IMG/VR virus record: IMGVR_UViG_2802429241_000002
Direction: 5' to 3' (one strand)
DNA length: 16,551 nt
From: a virus
Taxonomy: Duplodnaviria; Heunggongvirae; Uroviricota; Caudoviricetes
The translations under genes were made by a program, and so were the position numbers. Position 1 is the stretch's first letter; every line of letters starts with the position of its first letter. Positions 6,680-13,604 of this stretch are shown piece by piece. The notes beneath the pieces were generated by a model. That model worked only from the letters and a program-made list of their open reading frames with translations. It had not been told where the DNA came from and searched no databases.

Positions 6680-8638
6680 TTACGCCGTACATTTCACCAG
6701 ACCGCGGTGATCAACTGGCGCGACACCGGCGTCAATACGCACTTTCGTTGTCACGCCATCCACACTGAAGCCCTCCATCTGATCAACATATGGCGTATCC
6801 ACACCGTTGAGATAAGCCACTTCAATCGTATCGGAGCCTTTTGACGCAGCCAGGTAGAAGGTGGTCTGGCTGTTATCATCAAGACGAGGCTCTGCAATAA
6901 CGGTCGCAAAATCTTTCACCGGGTTAATAATACCGGCGTTAATGTCAGCCCCCTTGACACTTGAGGAGCGAATGACCTGGTTAGCAACAGACTCCATCGC
7001 CGTCGGTACCAGTACGAACGCAGGACGAATATTCAGATGACGCTCCCCCTCTTTCTGAACACGCATCAACTGGCGGGCTTTATCCAGCGATGCCACGTCC
7101 ATTGCAGCGCTCTCCAGTACGTTTGCATGTTTCGCTTTATCGAACAGACTTACATTATCTGTGGAGATTTTCGGGTTAGACGTCAGAATGGCATAAACCA
7201 GATCGGCAATAGTGGATTTCGCCGCACGGCCCAGCTTCATCGGGACATCGGTCAGCATATTCAGATCATCATTGATAATGGCCTGACGGGTGATACTGAA
7301 CAGCTCGCCATAGGTCGCCAGTGCAATAGTGGCCTGTTTATCTCCGGTGGTGACGTATTTATATTCCGCCCCTTCACGCACCTGGCGCAGAGCACTGAAG
7401 CCCCCCATACCCACACGATGGGCAATTTTAAAATCAGACAACTGACCTTTCCGCGTCCACTGTTCGTAAGTTTCAGGAGCATCTTCCCAGCCCTGCAGAA
7501 TGGCTTTGTTCGCAACATCCAACAAAATATTACCGAAGTCAGACGTACTGTGTGTGAACGCCGCACCAACCATCTGCATCGGATTATAACCGGAAACCCC
7601 AATACCCCGTTCAGTCAGTGACATACGGGCATATTCACGCAGGGTCATCCCGTTGTAGACATTATCACGTTCGGTTTTTTCAAATCCGGCACGCGCCATC
7701 AGCGCCTGGCGGATCCCGTCCCCCACAAAATTACCGTTACCGGCATAAATATGAGCCGGGGTATTTTTATTGGATGGCGTGGACTCGCGCCCCATCTCGT
7801 TCAACAGCTTTTCGCGGGCCTGCTCCAGCGAACATTCAGGATCGGCAAGACACTGAGCCTGCAGCGTCTGATAACGCCCGCCAAACATGGCAAACAGATC
7901 ATTAATACCGTTTACACGCGCTTTTTGCTCTGCCAGTACCTGCGCACGGATACTGTTTTCATCCACCACGGGTGCTGCTGCCTGCACTGGCGTCCGGGAG
8001 GCTTCAGGTTCATTATCCTGTACGCGTGGAGCACTGTTGCGTGGCGGAGTAATCATGTTTCGAATGGATTCCGGCATCTTTTTAAATTCCTCTGTACGTT
8101 TTGACTGAATACATGCCATTGCCTTAACGGCTGGCGTCACCTGATCAGCAAATCCATGTGCCAGACATTCGGCACCGGACATCCAGGTCTCATCCGCCAG
8201 CATGGCAGCAATTTCATCGGTGGTTTTCCCGGTTTTCTGTGCATAAGCGGGTAACAGAACCGCCTCAACTTTATCAAGCAGGTCGGCATAGGTGCGCATG
8301 TCCTCCGCATCACCGCCCGTAAAGCCAAATGGTTTATGAATCATCATGAAGGTGTTTTCCGGCATAATGACCGGGTTTCCCACCATCGCAATGACCGACG
8401 CCATTGACGCCGCCACACCGTCGACATAAACGGTAATGGACGCACCATGTGTTTTCAGTGCATTAAAAATGGCGATGCCTTCAAAGACATCGCCACCCGG
8501 TGAATTGATATGGAGATTAATGTGGGTGATATCGCCCAGTGCACTCAGATCACTGATAAACTGCTTCGCTGTAACACCCCAGAAACCAATCTCGTCATAA
8601 ATATAAATATCCGCGTCACTCTGGTGACCAGCCTGCAT
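6680..8638 (-). CDS. prohead protease (ClpP/S14-like) - scaffold - major capsid protein fusion (~652 aa)
   Basis: N-terminal region contains a ClpP-like motif (INSPGGDVFEGIAIFNALK...VDGVAASMASVIAMVGN, Ser in AASM); central coiled-coil segment; large C-terminal domain typical of capsid proteins. Start placed at ATG 8638 because the track's upstream extension overlaps the portal gene by ~250 nt; SD at 8638 is weak. Confidence 0.8.
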   Translation of the reverse strand: MQAGHQSDADIYIYDEIGFWGVTAKQFISDLSALGDITHINLHINSPGGDVFEGIAIFNALKTHGASITVYVDGVAASMASVIAMVGNPVIMPENTFMMIHKPFGFTGGDAEDMRTYADLLDKVEAVLLPAYAQKTGKTTDEIAAMLADETWMSGAECLAHGFADQVTPAVKAMACIQSKRTEEFKKMPESIRNMITPPRNSAPRVQDNEPEASRTPVQAAAPVVDENSIRAQVLAEQKARVNGINDLFAMFGGRYQTLQAQCLADPECSLEQAREKLLNEMGRESTPSNKNTPAHIYAGNGNFVGDGIRQALMARAGFEKTERDNVYNGMTLREYARMSLTERGIGVSGYNPMQMVGAAFTHSTSDFGNILLDVANKAILQGWEDAPETYEQWTRKGQLSDFKIAHRVGMGGFSALRQVREGAEYKYVTTGDKQATIALATYGELFSITRQAIINDDLNMLTDVPMKLGRAAKSTIADLVYAILTSNPKISTDNVSLFDKAKHANVLESAAMDVASLDKARQLMRVQKEGERHLNIRPAFVLVPTAMESVANQVIRSSSVKGADINAGIINPVKDFATVIAEPRLDDNSQTTFYLAASKGSDTIEVAYLNGVDTPYVDQMEGFSVDGVTTKVRIDAGVAPVDHRGLVKCTA

Positions 8639-8651
8639 CCTGAACCAGGAA

Positions 8652-10160
8652 TTATTCTTCGGACTGGTCGTCGGTGTGCTGCGGCTCCTGTCGTTTCGTT
8701 GCGGCACTGCTGCCTCCTTTATCACTGGCCGGATCGGTATCAAATACCAGATCCAGCTTGCGGTTTTCATCAATTTCGGCCTTGCGCCGACGTTTGACAT
8801 CATCCGGATTACGACCACCTGCACGTACCCAGTCTGATTCTGTCGCCGCTCCACCACGAATCTGAATTTTCCAGGCCTCAGCCTCCTTAACAGGGTCAAT
8901 CCACGGCATCACCGGTCCGGAATACACCGCGGTATACAGTGAAGAACGGTCAAGATCGCGGGGTAGCCTGATAACACCGGATGCCACAGCCTGTTTCAGC
9001 CAGGCACGATACATCGGGCGGGTGACGGCACCAATAAACCAGTCCTGCAGGATCAGGTAGCCATCAGTAGACTCAACCAGTTCCTGACGCTGGGCGCTGT
9101 AAGTGCCGTTATAGTTGCGTGCTGTACTGGAAAAACTCAGACGACTGCCCGCCGCCACGGCACGCAACTGACCATTACGAAAAGTTTCAAGGTTAGGATT
9201 GGGGCGATCCGACTTCACCATTCCGATTTCTTCGCCGGGTTTCAGATCGTCGTAAATAATGCCTGGCTGAATGGTAAGCTCGCGTTCATTCTCCTTGCAG
9301 CCATTACCATCCGGTTCATAGCTCTGTCCGTCGCCTTTCCGGATGTACATCCCCAGAGCAGCGGCGATCCTTGCTGCAGTCAGCTCAGAATCTTCATACT
9401 CTTTCAGGGCACTGAGGCGGATCAGTACACCGGACAATAAAGACGTCCCGCGCATCTGGTGCAGACGGCGAACAAATTTAAGATGCAGCATTCGCTCTGC
9501 ATCCACTTCTTTGGTTTCCATCTGCCGTCCGGATACAGGACGGCTTTTATACACCAGATATTTTTCGGGACGCCCCCAGTCATCAACAAACACGCCCTGA
9601 TTCAGCCTGTTGCTCTCATCACTGGTCATGGGAATAAAGTCCGGCTCGAGCGCCTCCAGCCAGAAATGAACACCGGCAGAAGGCGTCAGGCTGTTTATGC
9701 GCCCGGAAACCATCTGGGCAAACACCTCACCATCGCGCAGCCAGGTACGCAGCATCAGACGTTCCAGCATCGGGCGGGTAAACTGCCCGGTGACTTCCGG
9801 ACTGACAGACCATTCACTCCATCGGGTGCGTATCTCCGCTGCCAGGTCACGGGCAATGGCCCCATTGCGTAATACCGGATGTGGCTCGACAATAATCCCG
9901 TTTTTCCCCACCACCCGTTCTTCCAGCTTGTCAAATACACCAATAACCAGATCGTGGTTGTTATCAAGGTAACGGGCCTGCTCACGTAACGACACGGCCC
10001 CGTACTGGCTTAACTGGTCGGCAGTTCGGTTTTCCCGCCGGGCTTTGTGTGTCCGCGTCGTTTTTACGGCCTCATAAGCCTGGATCACCGCACGGGAACG
10101 CAGCCTTGCCGCTTTCCATCCTGGTGAAAAAACGCCAATCACATCATCAAGAATAGCCAT
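8652..10160 (-). CDS. portal protein (~502 aa)
   Basis: Size and position (between gpW-like and prohead protease genes, downstream of terminase). Start at ATG 10160 (MAILDDVIG...) with GAGG SD and ATGA overlap with the W stop. Confidence 0.8.
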   Translation of the reverse strand: MAILDDVIGVFSPGWKAARLRSRAVIQAYEAVKTTRTHKARRENRTADQLSQYGAVSLREQARYLDNNHDLVIGVFDKLEERVVGKNGIIVEPHPVLRNGAIARDLAAEIRTRWSEWSVSPEVTGQFTRPMLERLMLRTWLRDGEVFAQMVSGRINSLTPSAGVHFWLEALEPDFIPMTSDESNRLNQGVFVDDWGRPEKYLVYKSRPVSGRQMETKEVDAERMLHLKFVRRLHQMRGTSLLSGVLIRLSALKEYEDSELTAARIAAALGMYIRKGDGQSYEPDGNGCKENERELTIQPGIIYDDLKPGEEIGMVKSDRPNPNLETFRNGQLRAVAAGSRLSFSSTARNYNGTYSAQRQELVESTDGYLILQDWFIGAVTRPMYRAWLKQAVASGVIRLPRDLDRSSLYTAVYSGPVMPWIDPVKEAEAWKIQIRGGAATESDWVRAGGRNPDDVKRRRKAEIDENRKLDLVFDTDPASDKGGSSAATKRQEPQHTDDQSEE

Positions 10161-10372
10161 CAGAACCTCGCCAGCCGGTACCCGGGATGCCCCCGTCGTC
10201 GTGTAATCAGAGCCGCAAGGCGGCGCTCCCACTCCTGCCGTCCCTGCCGGATCTCAGATAAGTTTTCCATGGTCATCTGCTGACCATTAAAGGTGACGGA
10301 TTTTCCGTCCAGCACCGCCATTTCAGCTTCCGTATAACGCTGAATCATGGCTTCGATATCATTCTGGTTCAT
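10160..10372 (-). CDS. W: head-tail joining / head completion protein, gpW-like (70 aa)
   Basis: MNQNDIEAMIQRYTEAEMAVLDGKSVTFNGQQMTMENLSEI...RRRGHPGY resembles lambda gpW (...RRRGPAGFYV). GGAGG SD 6 nt upstream of ATG 10372; ATGA overlap with terminase stop. Confidence 0.8.
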   Translation of the reverse strand: MNQNDIEAMIQRYTEAEMAVLDGKSVTFNGQQMTMENLSEIRQGRQEWERRLAALITRRRGHPGYRLARF

Positions 10373-12471
10373 AACCATCCTCCGGAAGTCAGCCAGGGGT
10401 TAACATCGTCAGTTACTGTTTTCTTCCGTTTTTGTTTTTTAACAGGCGTGGATACCGGTTCCGGTGAGGGTGACGGTTCGGTACTGTCCGGGACACACTC
10501 CAGCCAGGTTTCCCGGCTCGCCCACTCCGGTGTATCCGGCCAGCGGATCTTTTCGTATCCATGCAGAATGACCAGAGCCTCGGCATACACCATCAGGTCA
10601 AAAGCTTCGTTGGCACCGCGACCCGGCTTACTCCATTTCCCGTCACTGCTCCGCTCTTCATACGTCAGTTCGTCGTAAAACCAGCTCCCCAGCCAGTCAG
10701 GGAAATGCACATAGCCGGGACCTGGAGAGTCACGCCATAACGCGTTATTCACCCGGTCTTTCAGGGCATCCGTCTGAAGAAGCCAGAGCGGCACATCACC
10801 TGCGGCCTGCGCCCGTCGGCCCGTTCGTCCGGTGTTATCAGGGAATGTACGGGTGATCAGTTTTGCGCGCCGGATGCTGTCGCCCTTAAACAGGTAAATA
10901 CGTTTACCAAGGCCATCACGACGGCAACGACGCCAGAATTTATAGGCATTATCAGTGACCCCGTCTTCACCGCCGGAGTCCACCGCCATTGCCATCAGTC
11001 GCATTTGTTGAGAAGGATCGGAGGCCAGCGGCCAGCTTTTATGAAAAACATCCGTCAGCAGGACATCCCAGTCTTCCGGATAGCTGGCCGGATCAATTCG
11101 CTGGCTCTCCCCGTCGCTGTCACCGCGCAATGACTGCGTGATGTTGTAACGATCAATAATCCAGCGTTCGCCACGGCTGCCATAGCCCGTTACCTGAACC
11201 ACAAAACGGCGATGACGTCCCGCCTGCACATCCACTGTCGCCACAAGGAAATTAACGCCATCCGGCACACTGCGGGAAGGAACTGGCTCTGCCCGCTGCT
11301 CAAGCAGTTCACTTTTTCGTTGCTCCATGCTGGCACGGGGAAGATAAGGTAATCCCCAGTCGGTATTGATAACCGTCTTGAGTGTTTCTTCACTTCCGGT
11401 TGTCTCGTATTCCTGTTCTGCAGTAAGCAGTTTGTAAACGAGTTGCGAGAGTGTCTGGTAAGCAGCTGCCGGACCCTCCATCCAGAATGACGCAATACGT
11501 GAGCGTCGGGGATCACCATAACGACTGCCATCCGCATTGATGGATTCACCATCCCGCAACCAGACCCCACGTCCGTTCAGCTCACGTTTTTGTTCAGGCA
11601 TAATCCGTCCTGAACAGGAAGGACACTGAATATAAGCCGCCTCACTTGCCAGCACGGGATCGGCAATATCACGGAAACCAGCAACCACATCGCCGCAGGG
11701 CTGAAAATACTCACCACAGTGTGGACAGGGCCAGTACCAGCGACGGCGATCACCACGGTTATAGAGCGACAGTATCCCCGTGGTTGGTGGAGCCTCATGC
11801 GGTGAAGTCCGTCGCCATTTCACATCCTTCACATCCCTGCCGGGGGAACTCTCCACCAGCGTCATACCACTGGACATAAATGTGGTGGTACGTTTTGAGG
11901 CAAGAGAGAAGGCATCCCCCTCGCCATCAATATCTTCCGGAAAACGGTCATAATCCGTCAGCGCCACGCATTTATAATCTGATGAGGACATGATATTGAC
12001 TGACGGCCAGCCGATTTTCAGGTAGTTGCCAGCAAGGAATGTTCTGTCATAAACGTTGTTGTCATTTTTGTTCGGACTCAGGCGACTGACCACTTCCGGG
12101 CTGACGCGAAACGTCCTGGCAAGTCGTTTTTTGGAGTGTTCGCGGGCTTTTTCCTCCGTCATCTGAATGATCAGCATATCCGCAGGATCGCAAATCACGT
12201 TGTAAATCACCCAGCCGTCAATCAGGCCGATAGTCTTGCCGGTTCGTGCCGGGCCAACAAATATCACTGCGTCGTATTCACGCGAGGCCAGGCAGTTCAT
12301 CGGCTCAATAACATACGGTGCCACCAGCGGATCCCACGGGACTGAGTTCCCGGCCCCCATGGGCACCCGCATATATTGAGCAACGGCATCAGCAACCCGC
12401 ATTCGTCTCGGTGCGCGAAGGATATAACCTGAATCGGTTCGTGCTGCCTTTGCGGTTTCCTGATTCAGCAT
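10369..12471 (-). CDS. A: terminase large subunit (gpA family), 700 aa
   Basis: Walker A-like VGPARTGKT near the N-terminus, zinc-ribbon-like CPHCGEYF...CPSCSGRI, gene order Nu1-A-W as in lambda; GGAGGAG SD. Confidence 0.9.
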   Translation of the reverse strand: MLNQETAKAARTDSGYILRAPRRMRVADAVAQYMRVPMGAGNSVPWDPLVAPYVIEPMNCLASREYDAVIFVGPARTGKTIGLIDGWVIYNVICDPADMLIIQMTEEKAREHSKKRLARTFRVSPEVVSRLSPNKNDNNVYDRTFLAGNYLKIGWPSVNIMSSSDYKCVALTDYDRFPEDIDGEGDAFSLASKRTTTFMSSGMTLVESSPGRDVKDVKWRRTSPHEAPPTTGILSLYNRGDRRRWYWPCPHCGEYFQPCGDVVAGFRDIADPVLASEAAYIQCPSCSGRIMPEQKRELNGRGVWLRDGESINADGSRYGDPRRSRIASFWMEGPAAAYQTLSQLVYKLLTAEQEYETTGSEETLKTVINTDWGLPYLPRASMEQRKSELLEQRAEPVPSRSVPDGVNFLVATVDVQAGRHRRFVVQVTGYGSRGERWIIDRYNITQSLRGDSDGESQRIDPASYPEDWDVLLTDVFHKSWPLASDPSQQMRLMAMAVDSGGEDGVTDNAYKFWRRCRRDGLGKRIYLFKGDSIRRAKLITRTFPDNTGRTGRRAQAAGDVPLWLLQTDALKDRVNNALWRDSPGPGYVHFPDWLGSWFYDELTYEERSSDGKWSKPGRGANEAFDLMVYAEALVILHGYEKIRWPDTPEWASRETWLECVPDSTEPSPSPEPVSTPVKKQKRKKTVTDDVNPWLTSGGWL

Positions 12472-12965
12472 TACTCCTCCTGCTGTAATTCCTCCTCATC
12501 ATCCGCACCTGCTTCGGTCACCCGCAGGGCTATCTGATCACGCAGATCATCAATAATGGACTGAACACGGCTCACAGCGGCAGGCTGCAGACCGCAGTCA
12601 CGTTCCAGAATATCCGGTAATGTCTCCAGCACCTGCACGACCGCTTTTGCCCAGATGGCAAACTCCCGTCTGACATCACTGGCCGGAATGAGTTGCGCCG
12701 TTTCCTGTTCGAACTTAAGACGCTCACGTTCAGACTGATACCAGGCTTTGCGCTCATGCGCGTCCATTTCGCCTTCTGCAACCGGCGGTGGTAATGCCAG
12801 AAATGCCGACACAATATCAACCACCCGATAAAGCTTGAGGTTGCTTTCATGCCCCCCTGCAACGGGTAGATTTTGCAGCCTTGCCGCAGCAGTCTGGCGA
12901 TGTACACCTGACAGTGCTGCCAGTTGACTGATATTCAGCGTCAGATTTTTTAACTCTCGATCCAT
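12471..12965 (-). CDS. Nu1: terminase small subunit (Nu1-like DNA-binding subunit), 164 aa
   Basis: N-terminal HTH-like segment (LNISQLAALSGVHRQTAAARL), acidic C-terminus, immediately upstream of and overlapping the large terminase; GGAG SD. Confidence 0.8.
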   Translation of the reverse strand: MDRELKNLTLNISQLAALSGVHRQTAAARLQNLPVAGGHESNLKLYRVVDIVSAFLALPPPVAEGEMDAHERKAWYQSERERLKFEQETAQLIPASDVRREFAIWAKAVVQVLETLPDILERDCGLQPAAVSRVQSIIDDLRDQIALRVTEAGADDEEELQQEE

Positions 12966-13099
12966 ACCCGCTCCGGAATGTTTTAAACATGCATCTTGCG
13001 AACAACTTTAGATAAATGGTGTTAGTGATGAACAAAAAACTATCAAAATCGACACCGGAAAAATAAAATTTCTTGAATATCAATTCATTACACTTGTGG

Positions 13100-13200
13100 T
13101 GATGACGAATGAAATTTCAAAAACTAGCCTTTTTCCGCGACGCTCCCGCCCCGTGGCAGGCCCCCCCTCCGGGAGGACCCGTCAGCCTGACAGCTCTGAC
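13100..13200 (-). other. candidate cos site (cosQ-cosN-cosB); putative cosN around 13140..13151
   Basis: Minus-strand sequence GACGGGTCCTCCCGGAGGGGGGGCCTGCCACG-GGGCGGGAGCGT-CGCGGAAAAAGG resembles my recollection of the lambda cos junction (GACGGGTCCTTTCCGGTGATCCGACAGGTTACG-GGGCGGCGACCT-CGCGGGTTTTCG); located upstream of Nu1 with an AT-rich cosB-like stretch between. Confidence 0.5.
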
Positions 13201-13604
13201 GAACGTCTGATACAACGCCCTGCATGAATGGCATCGGAATAATCCAGAAAGGCATAGCATCGTGCCCACAAGAATCTGTGTAAGTGTCCTGTTTCTTCCA
13301 TCCCCGCACAGGACTGGCGAGCATGAGGGGCAAACCCGCGAACCATAAACGCGCTAAAAACCCTGTGTGCATCGTTTTTGATTATTCCCGCACACTCGCG
13401 CAGAAGGAGTTCCCCGTCGGGCTACGGTCTCTGTTAATGGGGGAATACGGCGACGATACGGCGCACAGAAATAGATCAGAAATCTATTGCCCACAATCCA
13501 CATAAAGGCAATACATTGCATGAGCACAGGTAATCGCCTATGCTCATGTATTGGCATTCTTTTGCCGCCGGCGAATCTTCAGCGGATTATCCTTGGCCGG
13601 TTTT

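What the first reader, a model, noticed from the sequence alone, without database searches (positions are those of the whole stretch)
13100..13200. Lambda-like cos region with a variant cohesive-end sequence
The segment upstream of Nu1 aligns by eye with the lambda cosQ-cosN-cosB junction, but the 12-nt block corresponding to the lambda cohesive end reads GGGCGGGAGCGT instead of GGGCGGCGACCT, and the adjacent cosQ-like sequence carries a near-palindrome CCTCCGGGAGG. If the terminase nicks here, the cohesive ends would differ from lambda at 4 of 12 positions, which bears on packaging specificity and cosmid compatibility.
Basis: partly seen in the sequence, partly recalled or inferred. Interest (0 to 1): 0.5.

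Follow-up and report, generated by a model that had tools for sequence, protein, structure and literature searches.

The report
Ordinary lambdoid prophage cos site
This is the DNA-packaging cut site (cos) of a very common E. coli lambda-like prophage; its sticky-end sequence does differ from lambda's at four bases, but the same sequence already marks the ends of published phage genomes, so it is ordinary.

Summary
On the minus strand the window reads GGGTCCT (cosQ, 13180-13174), a 22-nt spacer, then CG|GGGCGGGAGCGT|CG (12-mer 13151-13140). It lies 187 bp upstream of a small and a large terminase gene. The 12-mer differs from lambda's GGGCGGCGACCT at positions 7, 8, 9 and 11. The composite motif is unique in the window (1 match, 0.01 expected).

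It is a lambda-type cos site, but not a new one. The records of phages cdtI (2007) and Tritos begin with exactly GGGCGGGAGCGT and end with ...CCTGCCACG. In a sample of 131 IMG/VR sites it is the second commonest 12-mer. The 83-nt core occurs in 2075 of 5426 complete E. coli genomes. The window is 96-98% identical to isolated phages over 76-87% of its length (mEp460, Ayreon, phi458, PhiR40_1). Published work from the Feiss laboratory already states that cosN positions 7-12 vary naturally, while cosQ, the left half and the CG flanks are conserved. Gifsy-1 differs from this site only at position 7.

Two corrections. The gene downstream is a DUF1441-family small terminase, only a remote Nu1 homologue. 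The CCTCCGGGAGG palindrome is absent from all 14 sampled relatives, so it is a chance feature. Packaging specificity probably lies in cosB and the small-terminase N-terminus, not in the cohesive end. Physical DNA ends were not measured here.

The parts
13174..13180 (-). cosQ heptamer GGGTCCT, the packaging-termination signal in lambda
   Evidence: Exact match to lambda bp 48473-48479. It is invariant in the E. coli phage relatives examined. Fels-1 has AGGTACT at the same position.
13152..13173 (-). 22-nt spacer between cosQ and the first nick, CCCGGAGGGGGGGCCTGCCACG
   Evidence: Lambda has 23 nt and the relatives have 22 nt. The interior varies among relatives, while CCTGCCACG is conserved.
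13166..13176 (+).
   Evidence: Found in 0 of 14 IMG/VR sites with the same 12-mer and in 2 of 131 sites overall. Relatives read CCCGGTGG, CCCAGTGG or TCCGGTGG here.
13140..13151 (-). cosN cohesive-end block GGGCGGGAGCGT. Predicted nicks lie on the minus strand between 13152 and 13151, and on the plus strand between 13140 and 13139, giving 12-nt 5' overhangs.
   Evidence: It has the same CG flanks and the same left half (GGGCGG) as lambda. It differs from lambda at positions 7, 8, 9 and 11, and from Gifsy-1 at position 7 only. The cdtI and Tritos records begin with this 12-mer and end with ...CCTGCCACG. The nick positions are inferred, not measured.
13135..13156 (-). 22-bp cosN region CCACGGGGCGGGAGCGTCGCGG with partial two-fold symmetry
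   Evidence: 12 of 22 positions are symmetric, against 10 of 22 in lambda. In the 16-bp core, 8 of 16 are symmetric, against 10 of 16 in lambda.
13109..13135 (-). A-tract / T-tract segment GAAAAAGGCTAGTTTTTGAAATTTCAT, in the position of lambda I2
   Evidence: Its first ~18 bp (to about bp +33) are identical in all three cosB types, which diverge from there on. The analogy with I2 (PMC4856287) rests on position and composition only.
13099..13122 (-). R3-like repeat TTTTGAAATTTCATTCGTCATCAC (cos bp 30-53), candidate small-terminase binding site
   Evidence: It is a direct repeat of 13025-13048, 75% identical, with start-to-start spacing of 74 bp. It is conserved in relatives of the window type. 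Lambda R3 lies at bp 50-65 (PMC9026076). Binding is inferred.
13078..13090 (+). Perfect IHF consensus TATCAATTCATTA (cos bp 62-74), I1-like
   Evidence: WATCAANNNNTTR gives 2 matches in the window against 0.55 expected, and one of them is here. The core is conserved in relatives.
13025..13048 (-). R1-like repeat TTTTGATAGTTTTTTGTTCATCAC (cos bp 104-127)
   Evidence: conserved in relatives.
12471..12965 (-). Small terminase subunit, 164 aa, DUF1441 / PHROG 141; ATG at cos bp 187
   Evidence: Pfam DUF1441, E 2.7e-41. phrog_141 'terminase small subunit', E 7e-74, and phrog_57 (the family of Nu1), E 8e-10. hhalign against a Nu1 profile gives 80% probability, E 1.4e-5, colinear over the full length.
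10369..12471 (-). Large terminase subunit, 700 aa, gpA family (ATPase plus endonuclease)
   Evidence: Pfam GpA_ATPase, E 8.5e-72, and GpA_nuclease, E 1.1e-85. It is 25% identical to lambda gpA (E 4e-19) and 88% identical to the cdtI large terminase.

Best explanation
The segment is the cos site of an E. coli lambdoid prophage of the mEp460/cdtI type. This type has a gpA-family large terminase, a DUF1441-type small terminase and a Gifsy-2-like head with a fused ClpP protease and capsid protein.

By analogy with lambda, the proposed mechanism is as follows. The N-terminal helix-turn-helix domain of the small terminase binds the repeats of cosB (about 13122-13025). IHF bends the DNA at 13078-13090. 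This positions two large-terminase nuclease centres on cosN. They nick the two strands 12 bp apart: on the minus strand between 13152 and 13151, and on the plus strand between 13140 and 13139. The result is a virion chromosome with 5' overhangs GGGCGGGAGCGT. Packaging then proceeds through the terminase genes towards the head and tail genes, and cosQ (13180-13174) is needed for cutting at the next cos.

The 12-mer is a common natural allele of cosN. The variation lies in the right half (bp 7-12), which is known to be tolerant of change.

Shown here: the sequence anatomy, the protein families, the conservation, and the agreement with the termini of phage records. Inferred: the nick positions, protein binding to the repeats and the IHF site, and whether this particular prophage is active.
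For: 1. The composite cosQ-spacer-cosN motif is unique in the window: 1 match against 0.01 expected.
2. Location and order match lambda: the lysis genes (holin, lysozyme, Rz) lie upstream, and the small terminase start is 187 bp downstream of bp 1, against 191 bp in lambda.
3. The large terminase carries both gpA domains and is a homologue of lambda gpA.
4. The GenBank records of phage cdtI (AB285204) and phage Tritos (OV696610) begin with GGGCGGGAGCGT and end with ...CCTGCCACG.
5. Two virion-derived assemblies break exactly at this 12-mer. Ayreon has 153 nt of chimeric filler in place of window 13148..13137. mEp460_4F5 lacks 3 nt at the right nick.
6. The window is 96-98% identical over 76-87% of its length to isolated, plaque-forming or inducible phages (mEp460, Ayreon, phi458, PhiR40_1; PMC5764929).
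7. The same extraction method recovers the published cosN of Gifsy-1 (differences at 8, 9, 11; against PMC4669245) and of mEp213 (GGGCGGCGCGCT; against PMC12315714).
8. cosB contains a perfect IHF consensus flanked by 24-nt repeats.
9. cosB and the first 60 residues of the small terminase are exchanged together between relatives, while cosQ, cosN and the rest of the small terminase stay the same.
Against: No virion DNA ends were measured here. The start positions of the cdtI and Tritos records may have been set by analogy with lambda rather than by experiment, and I could not read Asakura et al. 2007.

No inverted R2-type repeat was identified convincingly, so the lambda-style R3-I1-R2-R1 layout is only partly matched.

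The small terminase is in a different Pfam family from Nu1, and a single-sequence structure model was too poor to test its fold (mean pLDDT 66).

A 16.5-kb window cannot show that the prophage is inducible.
Confidence: 0.85

Rival explanations
1. The site is a genuine cos sequence, but it sits in a defective, non-inducible prophage. It is never cut by its own terminase, and at most it is used by a related co-resident or superinfecting phage.
For: Only 16.5 kb is visible, and the immunity, replication and integration regions cannot be assessed. E. coli genomes carry up to 7 copies of this cos core, many of which must lie in decayed prophages. One IMG/VR contig shows a cdtI-type cos next to a disrupted small-terminase start (L035).
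Against: All packaging, head and lysis ORFs in the window are full length and match their families end to end. The region is 96-98% identical to that of viable phages. cosQ, cosN, the IHF site and the repeats carry no disabling differences from the functional relatives.
Confidence: 0.12
2. Terminase cuts here, but with a different stagger or offset from lambda, so the cohesive end is not exactly the 12-mer GGGCGGGAGCGT.
For: The large terminase is only 25% identical to lambda gpA. The central dyad is broken by G at position 7, leaving 8 of 16 symmetric positions against 10 of 16 in lambda. Other lambda-like phages have cohesive ends of 7-9 nt (PMC9303873). The related O157/Stx group has a different spacer (24 nt) and 12-mer region.
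Against: The two base pairs flanking each predicted nick (CG...CG) and the left half GGGCGG are identical to lambda and invariant among relatives. The literature describes exactly these bases as the ones under selection (PMC4669245). The cdtI and Tritos records are cut at precisely these positions.
Confidence: 0.03
3. The resemblance to lambda cos is a chance match in a G+C-rich intergenic stretch.
For: A 12-mer with 4 mismatches to lambda is expected many times by chance.
Against: The composite motif is expected 0.01 times. The 83-nt core is conserved in 2075 of 5426 complete E. coli genomes. It always lies upstream of a terminase small subunit in the IMG/VR sample wherever enough flank exists.
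Confidence: 0

Closest known systems
cos of phages cdtI (AB285204) and Tritos (OV696610), and of phi458, vB_EcoS-569R4 and PhiR40_1
   Same: cosQ and the 12-mer GGGCGGGAGCGT are identical, as are the flanks CCTGCCACG and CGCGGAAAAAGGCTAGTTTTT, and the spacer is 22 nt in all. The large terminase is 88% identical to that of cdtI. phi458 and 569R4 also share the window's cosB.
   Different: cdtI/Tritos and PhiR40_1 carry different cosB sequences and different small-terminase N-termini. The window has one private substitution in the spacer (CCCGGAGG instead of CCCGGTGG), which creates the palindrome.
cos of phage mEp460 (JQ182728)
   Same: Same cosQ, spacer, cosB and terminase. The window is 97.8% identical to mEp460 over 76% of its length.
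   Different: mEp460 has G at position 12 (GGGCGGGAGCGG).
cos of Salmonella phage Gifsy-1
   Same: cosQ is identical. The 12-mer GGGCGGCAGCGT shares the changes at positions 8, 9 and 11 relative to lambda (PMC4669245). The literature reports a complex cosB with an IHF site (PMC9026076).
   Different: Position 7 is C in Gifsy-1 and G here. Gifsy-1 has a true Nu1-type small terminase, 58% identical to Nu1, lambda/21-type head genes and a 23-nt spacer.
cos of bacteriophage lambda
   Same: Same cosQ heptamer, CG flanks, left half GGGCGG and 12-bp stagger (inferred). There is an A/T-rich segment after cosN, an IHF site and repeats before the small terminase gene, which starts at a similar distance (187 against 191 bp). 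The large terminase is of the gpA family.
   Different: 4 of 12 cohesive-end bases differ. The spacer is 1 nt shorter. There is no sequence similarity in cosB. The small terminase is in a different Pfam/PHROG family. The large terminase is only 25% identical. The head module is of the Gifsy-2 type (ClpP-capsid fusion).

Membership tests
[quoted passage not shown] | cosQ heptamer GGGTCCT about 30 bp upstream of the cut site | tested here: met
   Exact heptamer at 13180-13174, with a 22-nt spacer against 23 nt in lambda.
[quoted passage not shown] | cosN with conserved left half (bp 1-6, GGGCGG) and 5'-CG flanks at both nick positions | tested here: met
   CG|GGGCGGGAGCGT|CG. These are the positions the literature describes as under selection (PMC4669245, PMC9303873).
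[quoted passage not shown] | Partial two-fold rotational symmetry of cosN | tested here: met
   8 of 16 core positions and 12 of 22 positions are symmetric. Lambda has 10 of 16 and 10 of 22. The central pair is asymmetric here (G6, G7).
[quoted passage not shown] | Complex cosB between cosN and the small-terminase gene: IHF site plus three R repeats (R3-I1-R2-R1, with R2 inverted) | tested here: inconclusive
   There is a perfect IHF consensus at 13078-13090, flanked by two 24-nt direct repeats 74 bp apart. No clear inverted R2 was found, and binding was not tested.
[quoted passage not shown] | gpA-family large terminase encoded just downstream | tested here: met
   Pfam GpA_ATPase and GpA_nuclease. 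BLASTP against lambda gpA gives E 4e-19 and 25% identity.
[quoted passage not shown] | Virion DNA carries 12-nt 5' single-stranded cohesive ends | not testable with these tools
   Only indirect evidence is available: the cdtI and Tritos records are cut at the predicted nicks, and the Ayreon and mEp460_4F5 assemblies are disturbed exactly there.
Nu1 small terminase (Pfam Phage_Nu1; PHROG 57) | Sequence membership of the Nu1 family | tested here: not met
   The only Pfam hit is DUF1441. BLASTP against Nu1 finds nothing, and against the Gifsy-1 small terminase gives E 0.13. The best PHROG is 141, not 57.
Nu1 small terminase (Pfam Phage_Nu1; PHROG 57) | Remote homology and colinear architecture (N-terminal HTH, central helices, C-terminal large-terminase-binding part) | tested here: met
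   Reciprocal weak profile hits: the window's small terminase against phrog_57, E 8e-10, and Nu1 against phrog_141, E 5.6e-8. hhalign gives 80% probability, E 1.4e-5, over residues 9-156 against 2-166. The alignments are shallow (Neff 2.3).
mEp460/cdtI-type lambdoid phages of E. coli | DUF1441 small terminase, 700-aa gpA-type large terminase, lambda-family portal, ClpP-capsid fusion, and an identical cosQ-cosN core | tested here: met

The most novel reading that the evidence does not exclude
The right-half alleles of cosN, of which this is the second commonest, might not be neutral drift. They could act as end-annealing incompatibility groups that track terminase lineages. In polylysogenic E. 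coli (up to 7 copies of this cos core per genome), a chromosome started at one prophage's cos and ended at another's would then have mismatched ends and cyclise poorly, which would limit cross-packaging hybrids.

The association seen here fits this idea but does not prove it. GGGCGGGAGCGT was found only with DUF1441-type small terminases, and lambda's 12-mer only with Nu1-type ones.
Probability: 0.1. Interest if true: 0.4.

Novelty: already known. Interest (0 to 1): 0.1.

Why it matters
It matters little beyond annotation. It locates cos, and therefore the virion chromosome ends and the direction of packaging, for a prophage type present in more than a third of complete E. coli genomes. RefSeq leaves the site unannotated: no feature lies under any of the listed matches.

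In practice, DNA packaged from this cos would have ends that cannot anneal well with lambda ends, because 4 of 12 bases mismatch. Lambda packaging extracts would not be expected to recognise its cosB.

The side observation may be more useful. One cosQ-cosN module is combined with three different modules made of cosB plus the small-terminase N-terminus. This is a tidy natural parallel to the lambda/21 specificity swap, and it points to residues 1-60 of DUF1441 proteins as the DNA-recognition domain.

Tried and rejected
1. Literature search for the exact 12-mer, its reverse complement and an 11-mer prefix found no phage paper in the held library.
2. Vahanian et al. 2017 (the cosN survey), Asakura et al. 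2007 (phage cdtI) and Casjens & Gilcrease 2009 are not held. I therefore could not confirm whether this allele is listed there, or whether the cdtI ends were measured.
3. A local alignment to lambda recovers only the cosN core. There is no similarity in cosB.
4. A sequence search of solved structures with the small terminase gave no meaningful hit.
5. The single-sequence AlphaFold model of the small terminase was too weak for a fold search (mean pLDDT 66, N-terminal domain below 50 in part). No fold search was run.
6. The palindrome as a functional element was rejected because it is not conserved.
7. Rfam and tRNA scans of the window found nothing.
8. The one-genome-per-species scan for the 20-mer found E. 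coli and E. ruysiae, plus a few metagenome bins and a Streptomyces contig that I did not examine. It adds little.
9. The ORFs between Rz and cos (13372..13124, 13557..13354) were considered as genes and set aside because their products are low-complexity and implausible.

Full report
**The observation**

The genes in this part of the window run on the minus strand, so the site has to be read there. Read that way, 13190..13090 is GCTGACGGGTCCTCCCGGAGGGGGGGCCTGCCACG GGGCGGGAGCGT CGCGGAAAAAGGCTAGTTTTTGAAATTTCATTCGTCATCAC... I fetched both ends of the lambda record and joined them. Lambda reads TTTACGGGTCCTTTCCGGTGATCCGACAGGTTACG GGGCGGCGACCT CGCGGGTTTTCG....

It differs from lambda at positions 7, 8, 9 and 11. 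The lambda cosQ heptamer GGGTCCT is present exactly (13180..13174), one base closer to the cut site than in lambda. The two bases flanking each predicted nick (CG and CG) and the left half GGGCGG are identical to lambda.

The 12-mer on its own means nothing statistically. Lambda's 12-mer with up to 3 mismatches occurs 7 times in the window, against 14.6 expected. The composite motif cosQ-N20-CGGGGCGG-N6-CG occurs once, against 0.01 expected. Past about bp +17 there is no sequence similarity to lambda cosB.

**Context**

Upstream, in the direction of transcription, lie a phage-21-type holin, a DUF1327 protein, a lysozyme and Rz. Downstream lie a 164-aa protein, a 700-aa large terminase with both gpA domains, a head-tail adaptor, a lambda-family portal and a ClpP-protease/capsid fusion. 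This is the lambdoid late-gene order, with cos between the lysis genes and the terminase genes.

The small-terminase ATG is 187 bp from bp 1 of the 12-mer, against 191 bp in lambda. The large terminase is a true but distant gpA homologue (25% identity, E 4e-19).

The small subunit is not Nu1 in the family sense. Pfam gives DUF1441, and BLASTP finds no similarity to Nu1. It is nevertheless a remote homologue. It hits the PHROG that contains Nu1 at E 8e-10, and Nu1 hits its PHROG at E 5.6e-8. A profile-profile comparison built from the loci gathered here aligns the two families end to end at 80% probability.

**How common the site is**

The 83-nt core (cosQ to the first repeat) is found in 2075 of 5426 complete E. 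coli genomes, with up to 7 copies per genome. It is never under an annotated feature in the rows listed.

The whole window is 97-98% identical to prophages in many E. coli strains. It is 96-98% identical, over 76-87% of its length, to isolated phages PhiR40_1, phi458, vB_EcoS-569R4, mEp460_4F5, Ayreon and mEp460. Ayreon is a plaque-forming, lysogenising, inducible siphovirus (PMC5764929).

**Evidence that the DNA ends lie here**

Two deposited phage genomes, cdtI (AB285204) and Tritos (OV696610), begin with exactly GGGCGGGAGCGT and end with ...CCTGCCACG. That is the lambda convention applied to this very site. I could not establish whether those ends were measured or set by analogy, because Asakura et al. 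2007 is not held.

Two virion-derived assemblies give independent circumstantial support:
- The Ayreon record is colinear with the window up to 13149. It then has 153 nt of filler, including a 72-nt copy of the small-terminase gene body, and resumes at 13136. That pattern is expected if gap-filling software bridged real molecular ends.
- The mEp460_4F5 record is linearised five bases before the 12-mer and lacks three bases at the right-hand nick.

**Comparison with published cos sites**

The Feiss laboratory defines lambda-like phages by their 12-base 5' extensions. It reports that differences at cosN bp 7-12 are common (N15 and phiD326 at positions 9 and 12; Gifsy-1 at 8, 9 and 11). It also reports that cosQ, the left half and the CG flanks are conserved (PMC4669245). 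A dedicated survey exists (Vahanian et al. 2017, Virology 509:140), cited in PMC9026076, PMC9303873 and PMC12315714, but it is not held here.

I checked my extraction against two published cases, and both agree:
- Gifsy-1 reads GGGCGGCAGCGT.
- mEp213 reads GGGCGGCGCGCT, as stated in PMC12315714.

The window's allele is therefore the Gifsy-1 allele plus C7G.

It gave 131 sites with 24 distinct 12-mers. Lambda's occurred 65 times, this one 14 times (the second commonest) and mEp213's 8 times. All alleles keep 9-12 G+C out of 12.

Among sites with enough flanking sequence, this allele always sits upstream of a DUF1441-type small terminase. Lambda's allele sits upstream of Nu1-type genes.

**The palindrome**

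CCTCCGGGAGG (13166-13176) overlaps cosQ by three bases. Relatives read CCCGGTGG, CCCAGTGG, CCTGGTGG or TCCGGTGG at this place. None of the 14 sampled sites with the same 12-mer has the palindrome. It results from one private substitution and carries no weight.

**cosB and packaging specificity**

After cosN comes an A5/T5-tract segment in the position of lambda I2. Next is a 24-nt element (13122..13099), then a perfect IHF consensus (13078-13090; 2 matches in the window against 0.55 expected), and then a 75%-identical direct copy of the 24-nt element 74 bp further on (13048..13025). These blocks are conserved in relatives of the window type. I could not assign an inverted R2 with confidence, so the lambda R3-I1-R2-R1 scheme is only partly matched.

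Sequence from cosQ to about bp +33 is conserved (cosN and its flanks are identical) and is joined to three unrelated cosB sequences: the window/mEp460/phi458 type, the cdtI/Tritos type and the PhiR40_1 type. The small terminase of the PhiR40_1 type is 98-100% identical to the window's in residues 61-164, but only 67% identical in residues 1-60. The unit of exchange is therefore cosB plus the N-terminal helix-turn-helix domain. That is the same unit that defines lambda versus 21 specificity (PMC4669245, PMC9026076).

This places packaging specificity in cosB and the small terminase, not in the cohesive end. The 12-mer matters for whether ends from two phages can anneal. Published work shows that a 2-base mismatch is tolerated (PMC4669245). 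A 4-base mismatch with lambda has not been tested, to my knowledge.

**Verdict**

This is a real, correctly spotted lambda-type cos site with a non-lambda cohesive-end sequence. It is the standard cos of a very widespread group of E. coli lambdoid phages. Its exact sequence is already the terminal sequence of public phage records, and the principle that the right half of cosN varies is published.

I rate it as already known and of low interest (0.1).

The remaining uncertainty is experimental. Nobody in the material I could read has printed this 12-mer or shown the ends biochemically, and the activity of this particular prophage cannot be judged from 16.5 kb.

Noticed in passing
window ~13119 (cos bp +33) to ~12786 (TerS codon 60); loci L084, L140, L005, L007: There is a sharp mosaic joint. 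The same cosQ-cosN-A/T tract is joined to three different cosB sequences. The PhiR40-type small terminase is 67% identical to the window's in residues 1-60 but 98-100% identical in residues 61-164. cosB and the N-terminal domain of DUF1441 proteins therefore travel together, as in lambda/21 specificity hybrids.
   Followed up: partly
L139 (Ayreon MF807953, record 44258-44708) against window 13149..13136: The Ayreon GenBank record has 153 nt of chimeric filler, including a 72-nt copy of window 12632..12561 from the small-terminase gene, exactly where the 12-mer should be. A spurious 'putative late gene regulator' CDS is annotated over it. This is probably a gap-filling artefact at the physical DNA ends.
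   Followed up: yes
L003/L004 (mEp460_4F5, LR595868): The record starts at CCACGGGGCGGGAGCG^CGG. It lacks 3 nt (TCG) at the predicted right-hand nick compared with every relative. This is probably an assembly artefact at the cohesive ends.
   Followed up: partly
L138 (mEp460, JQ182728) and 5 IMG/VR sites: There is a position-12 polymorphism (GGGCGGGAGCGG against ...GCGT) on otherwise the same cos, cosB and terminase. Recombinants or cross-packaging between such phages would give single-base mismatched ends.
   Followed up: no
window 13124-13372 (-) and 13354-13557 (-): An 82-aa ORF runs straight across cosQ and cosN. It matches phrog_17397 (unknown function) at E 5e-46, so it is annotated in many phage records. 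Its product is low-complexity (…SSRRGGLPRGGSVAEKG), and the ORF would be split in virion DNA, so it is probably not a gene. The neighbouring 67-aa ORF has a weak 'Rz-like spanin' hit but an implausible sequence.
   Followed up: partly
L145, L146, L147 (VT1-Sakai, 1720a-02, Stx2_14040): The O157/Stx-phage group has the same cosQ, but a 24-nt spacer and GGGCGGGCGGCG (VT1-Sakai: GGGCGGGCGGGC) at the cosN position. The flank after it differs, so the nick positions are less obvious there.
   Followed up: no
L035, L060, L070 (IMG/VR contigs): Single contigs of 12-13.5 kb carry three cos-pattern matches each. In L035 one of them is a cdtI-type cos next to a small-terminase start disrupted by a stop codon. 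These may be decayed or tandem prophage remnants, or cos-bearing satellites.
   Followed up: no
window 6680-8899 (-): The head module is a ClpP-like protease fused to a major capsid protein (739-aa ORF), the Gifsy-2-type arrangement rather than lambda's C/Nu3/D/E genes.
   Followed up: no
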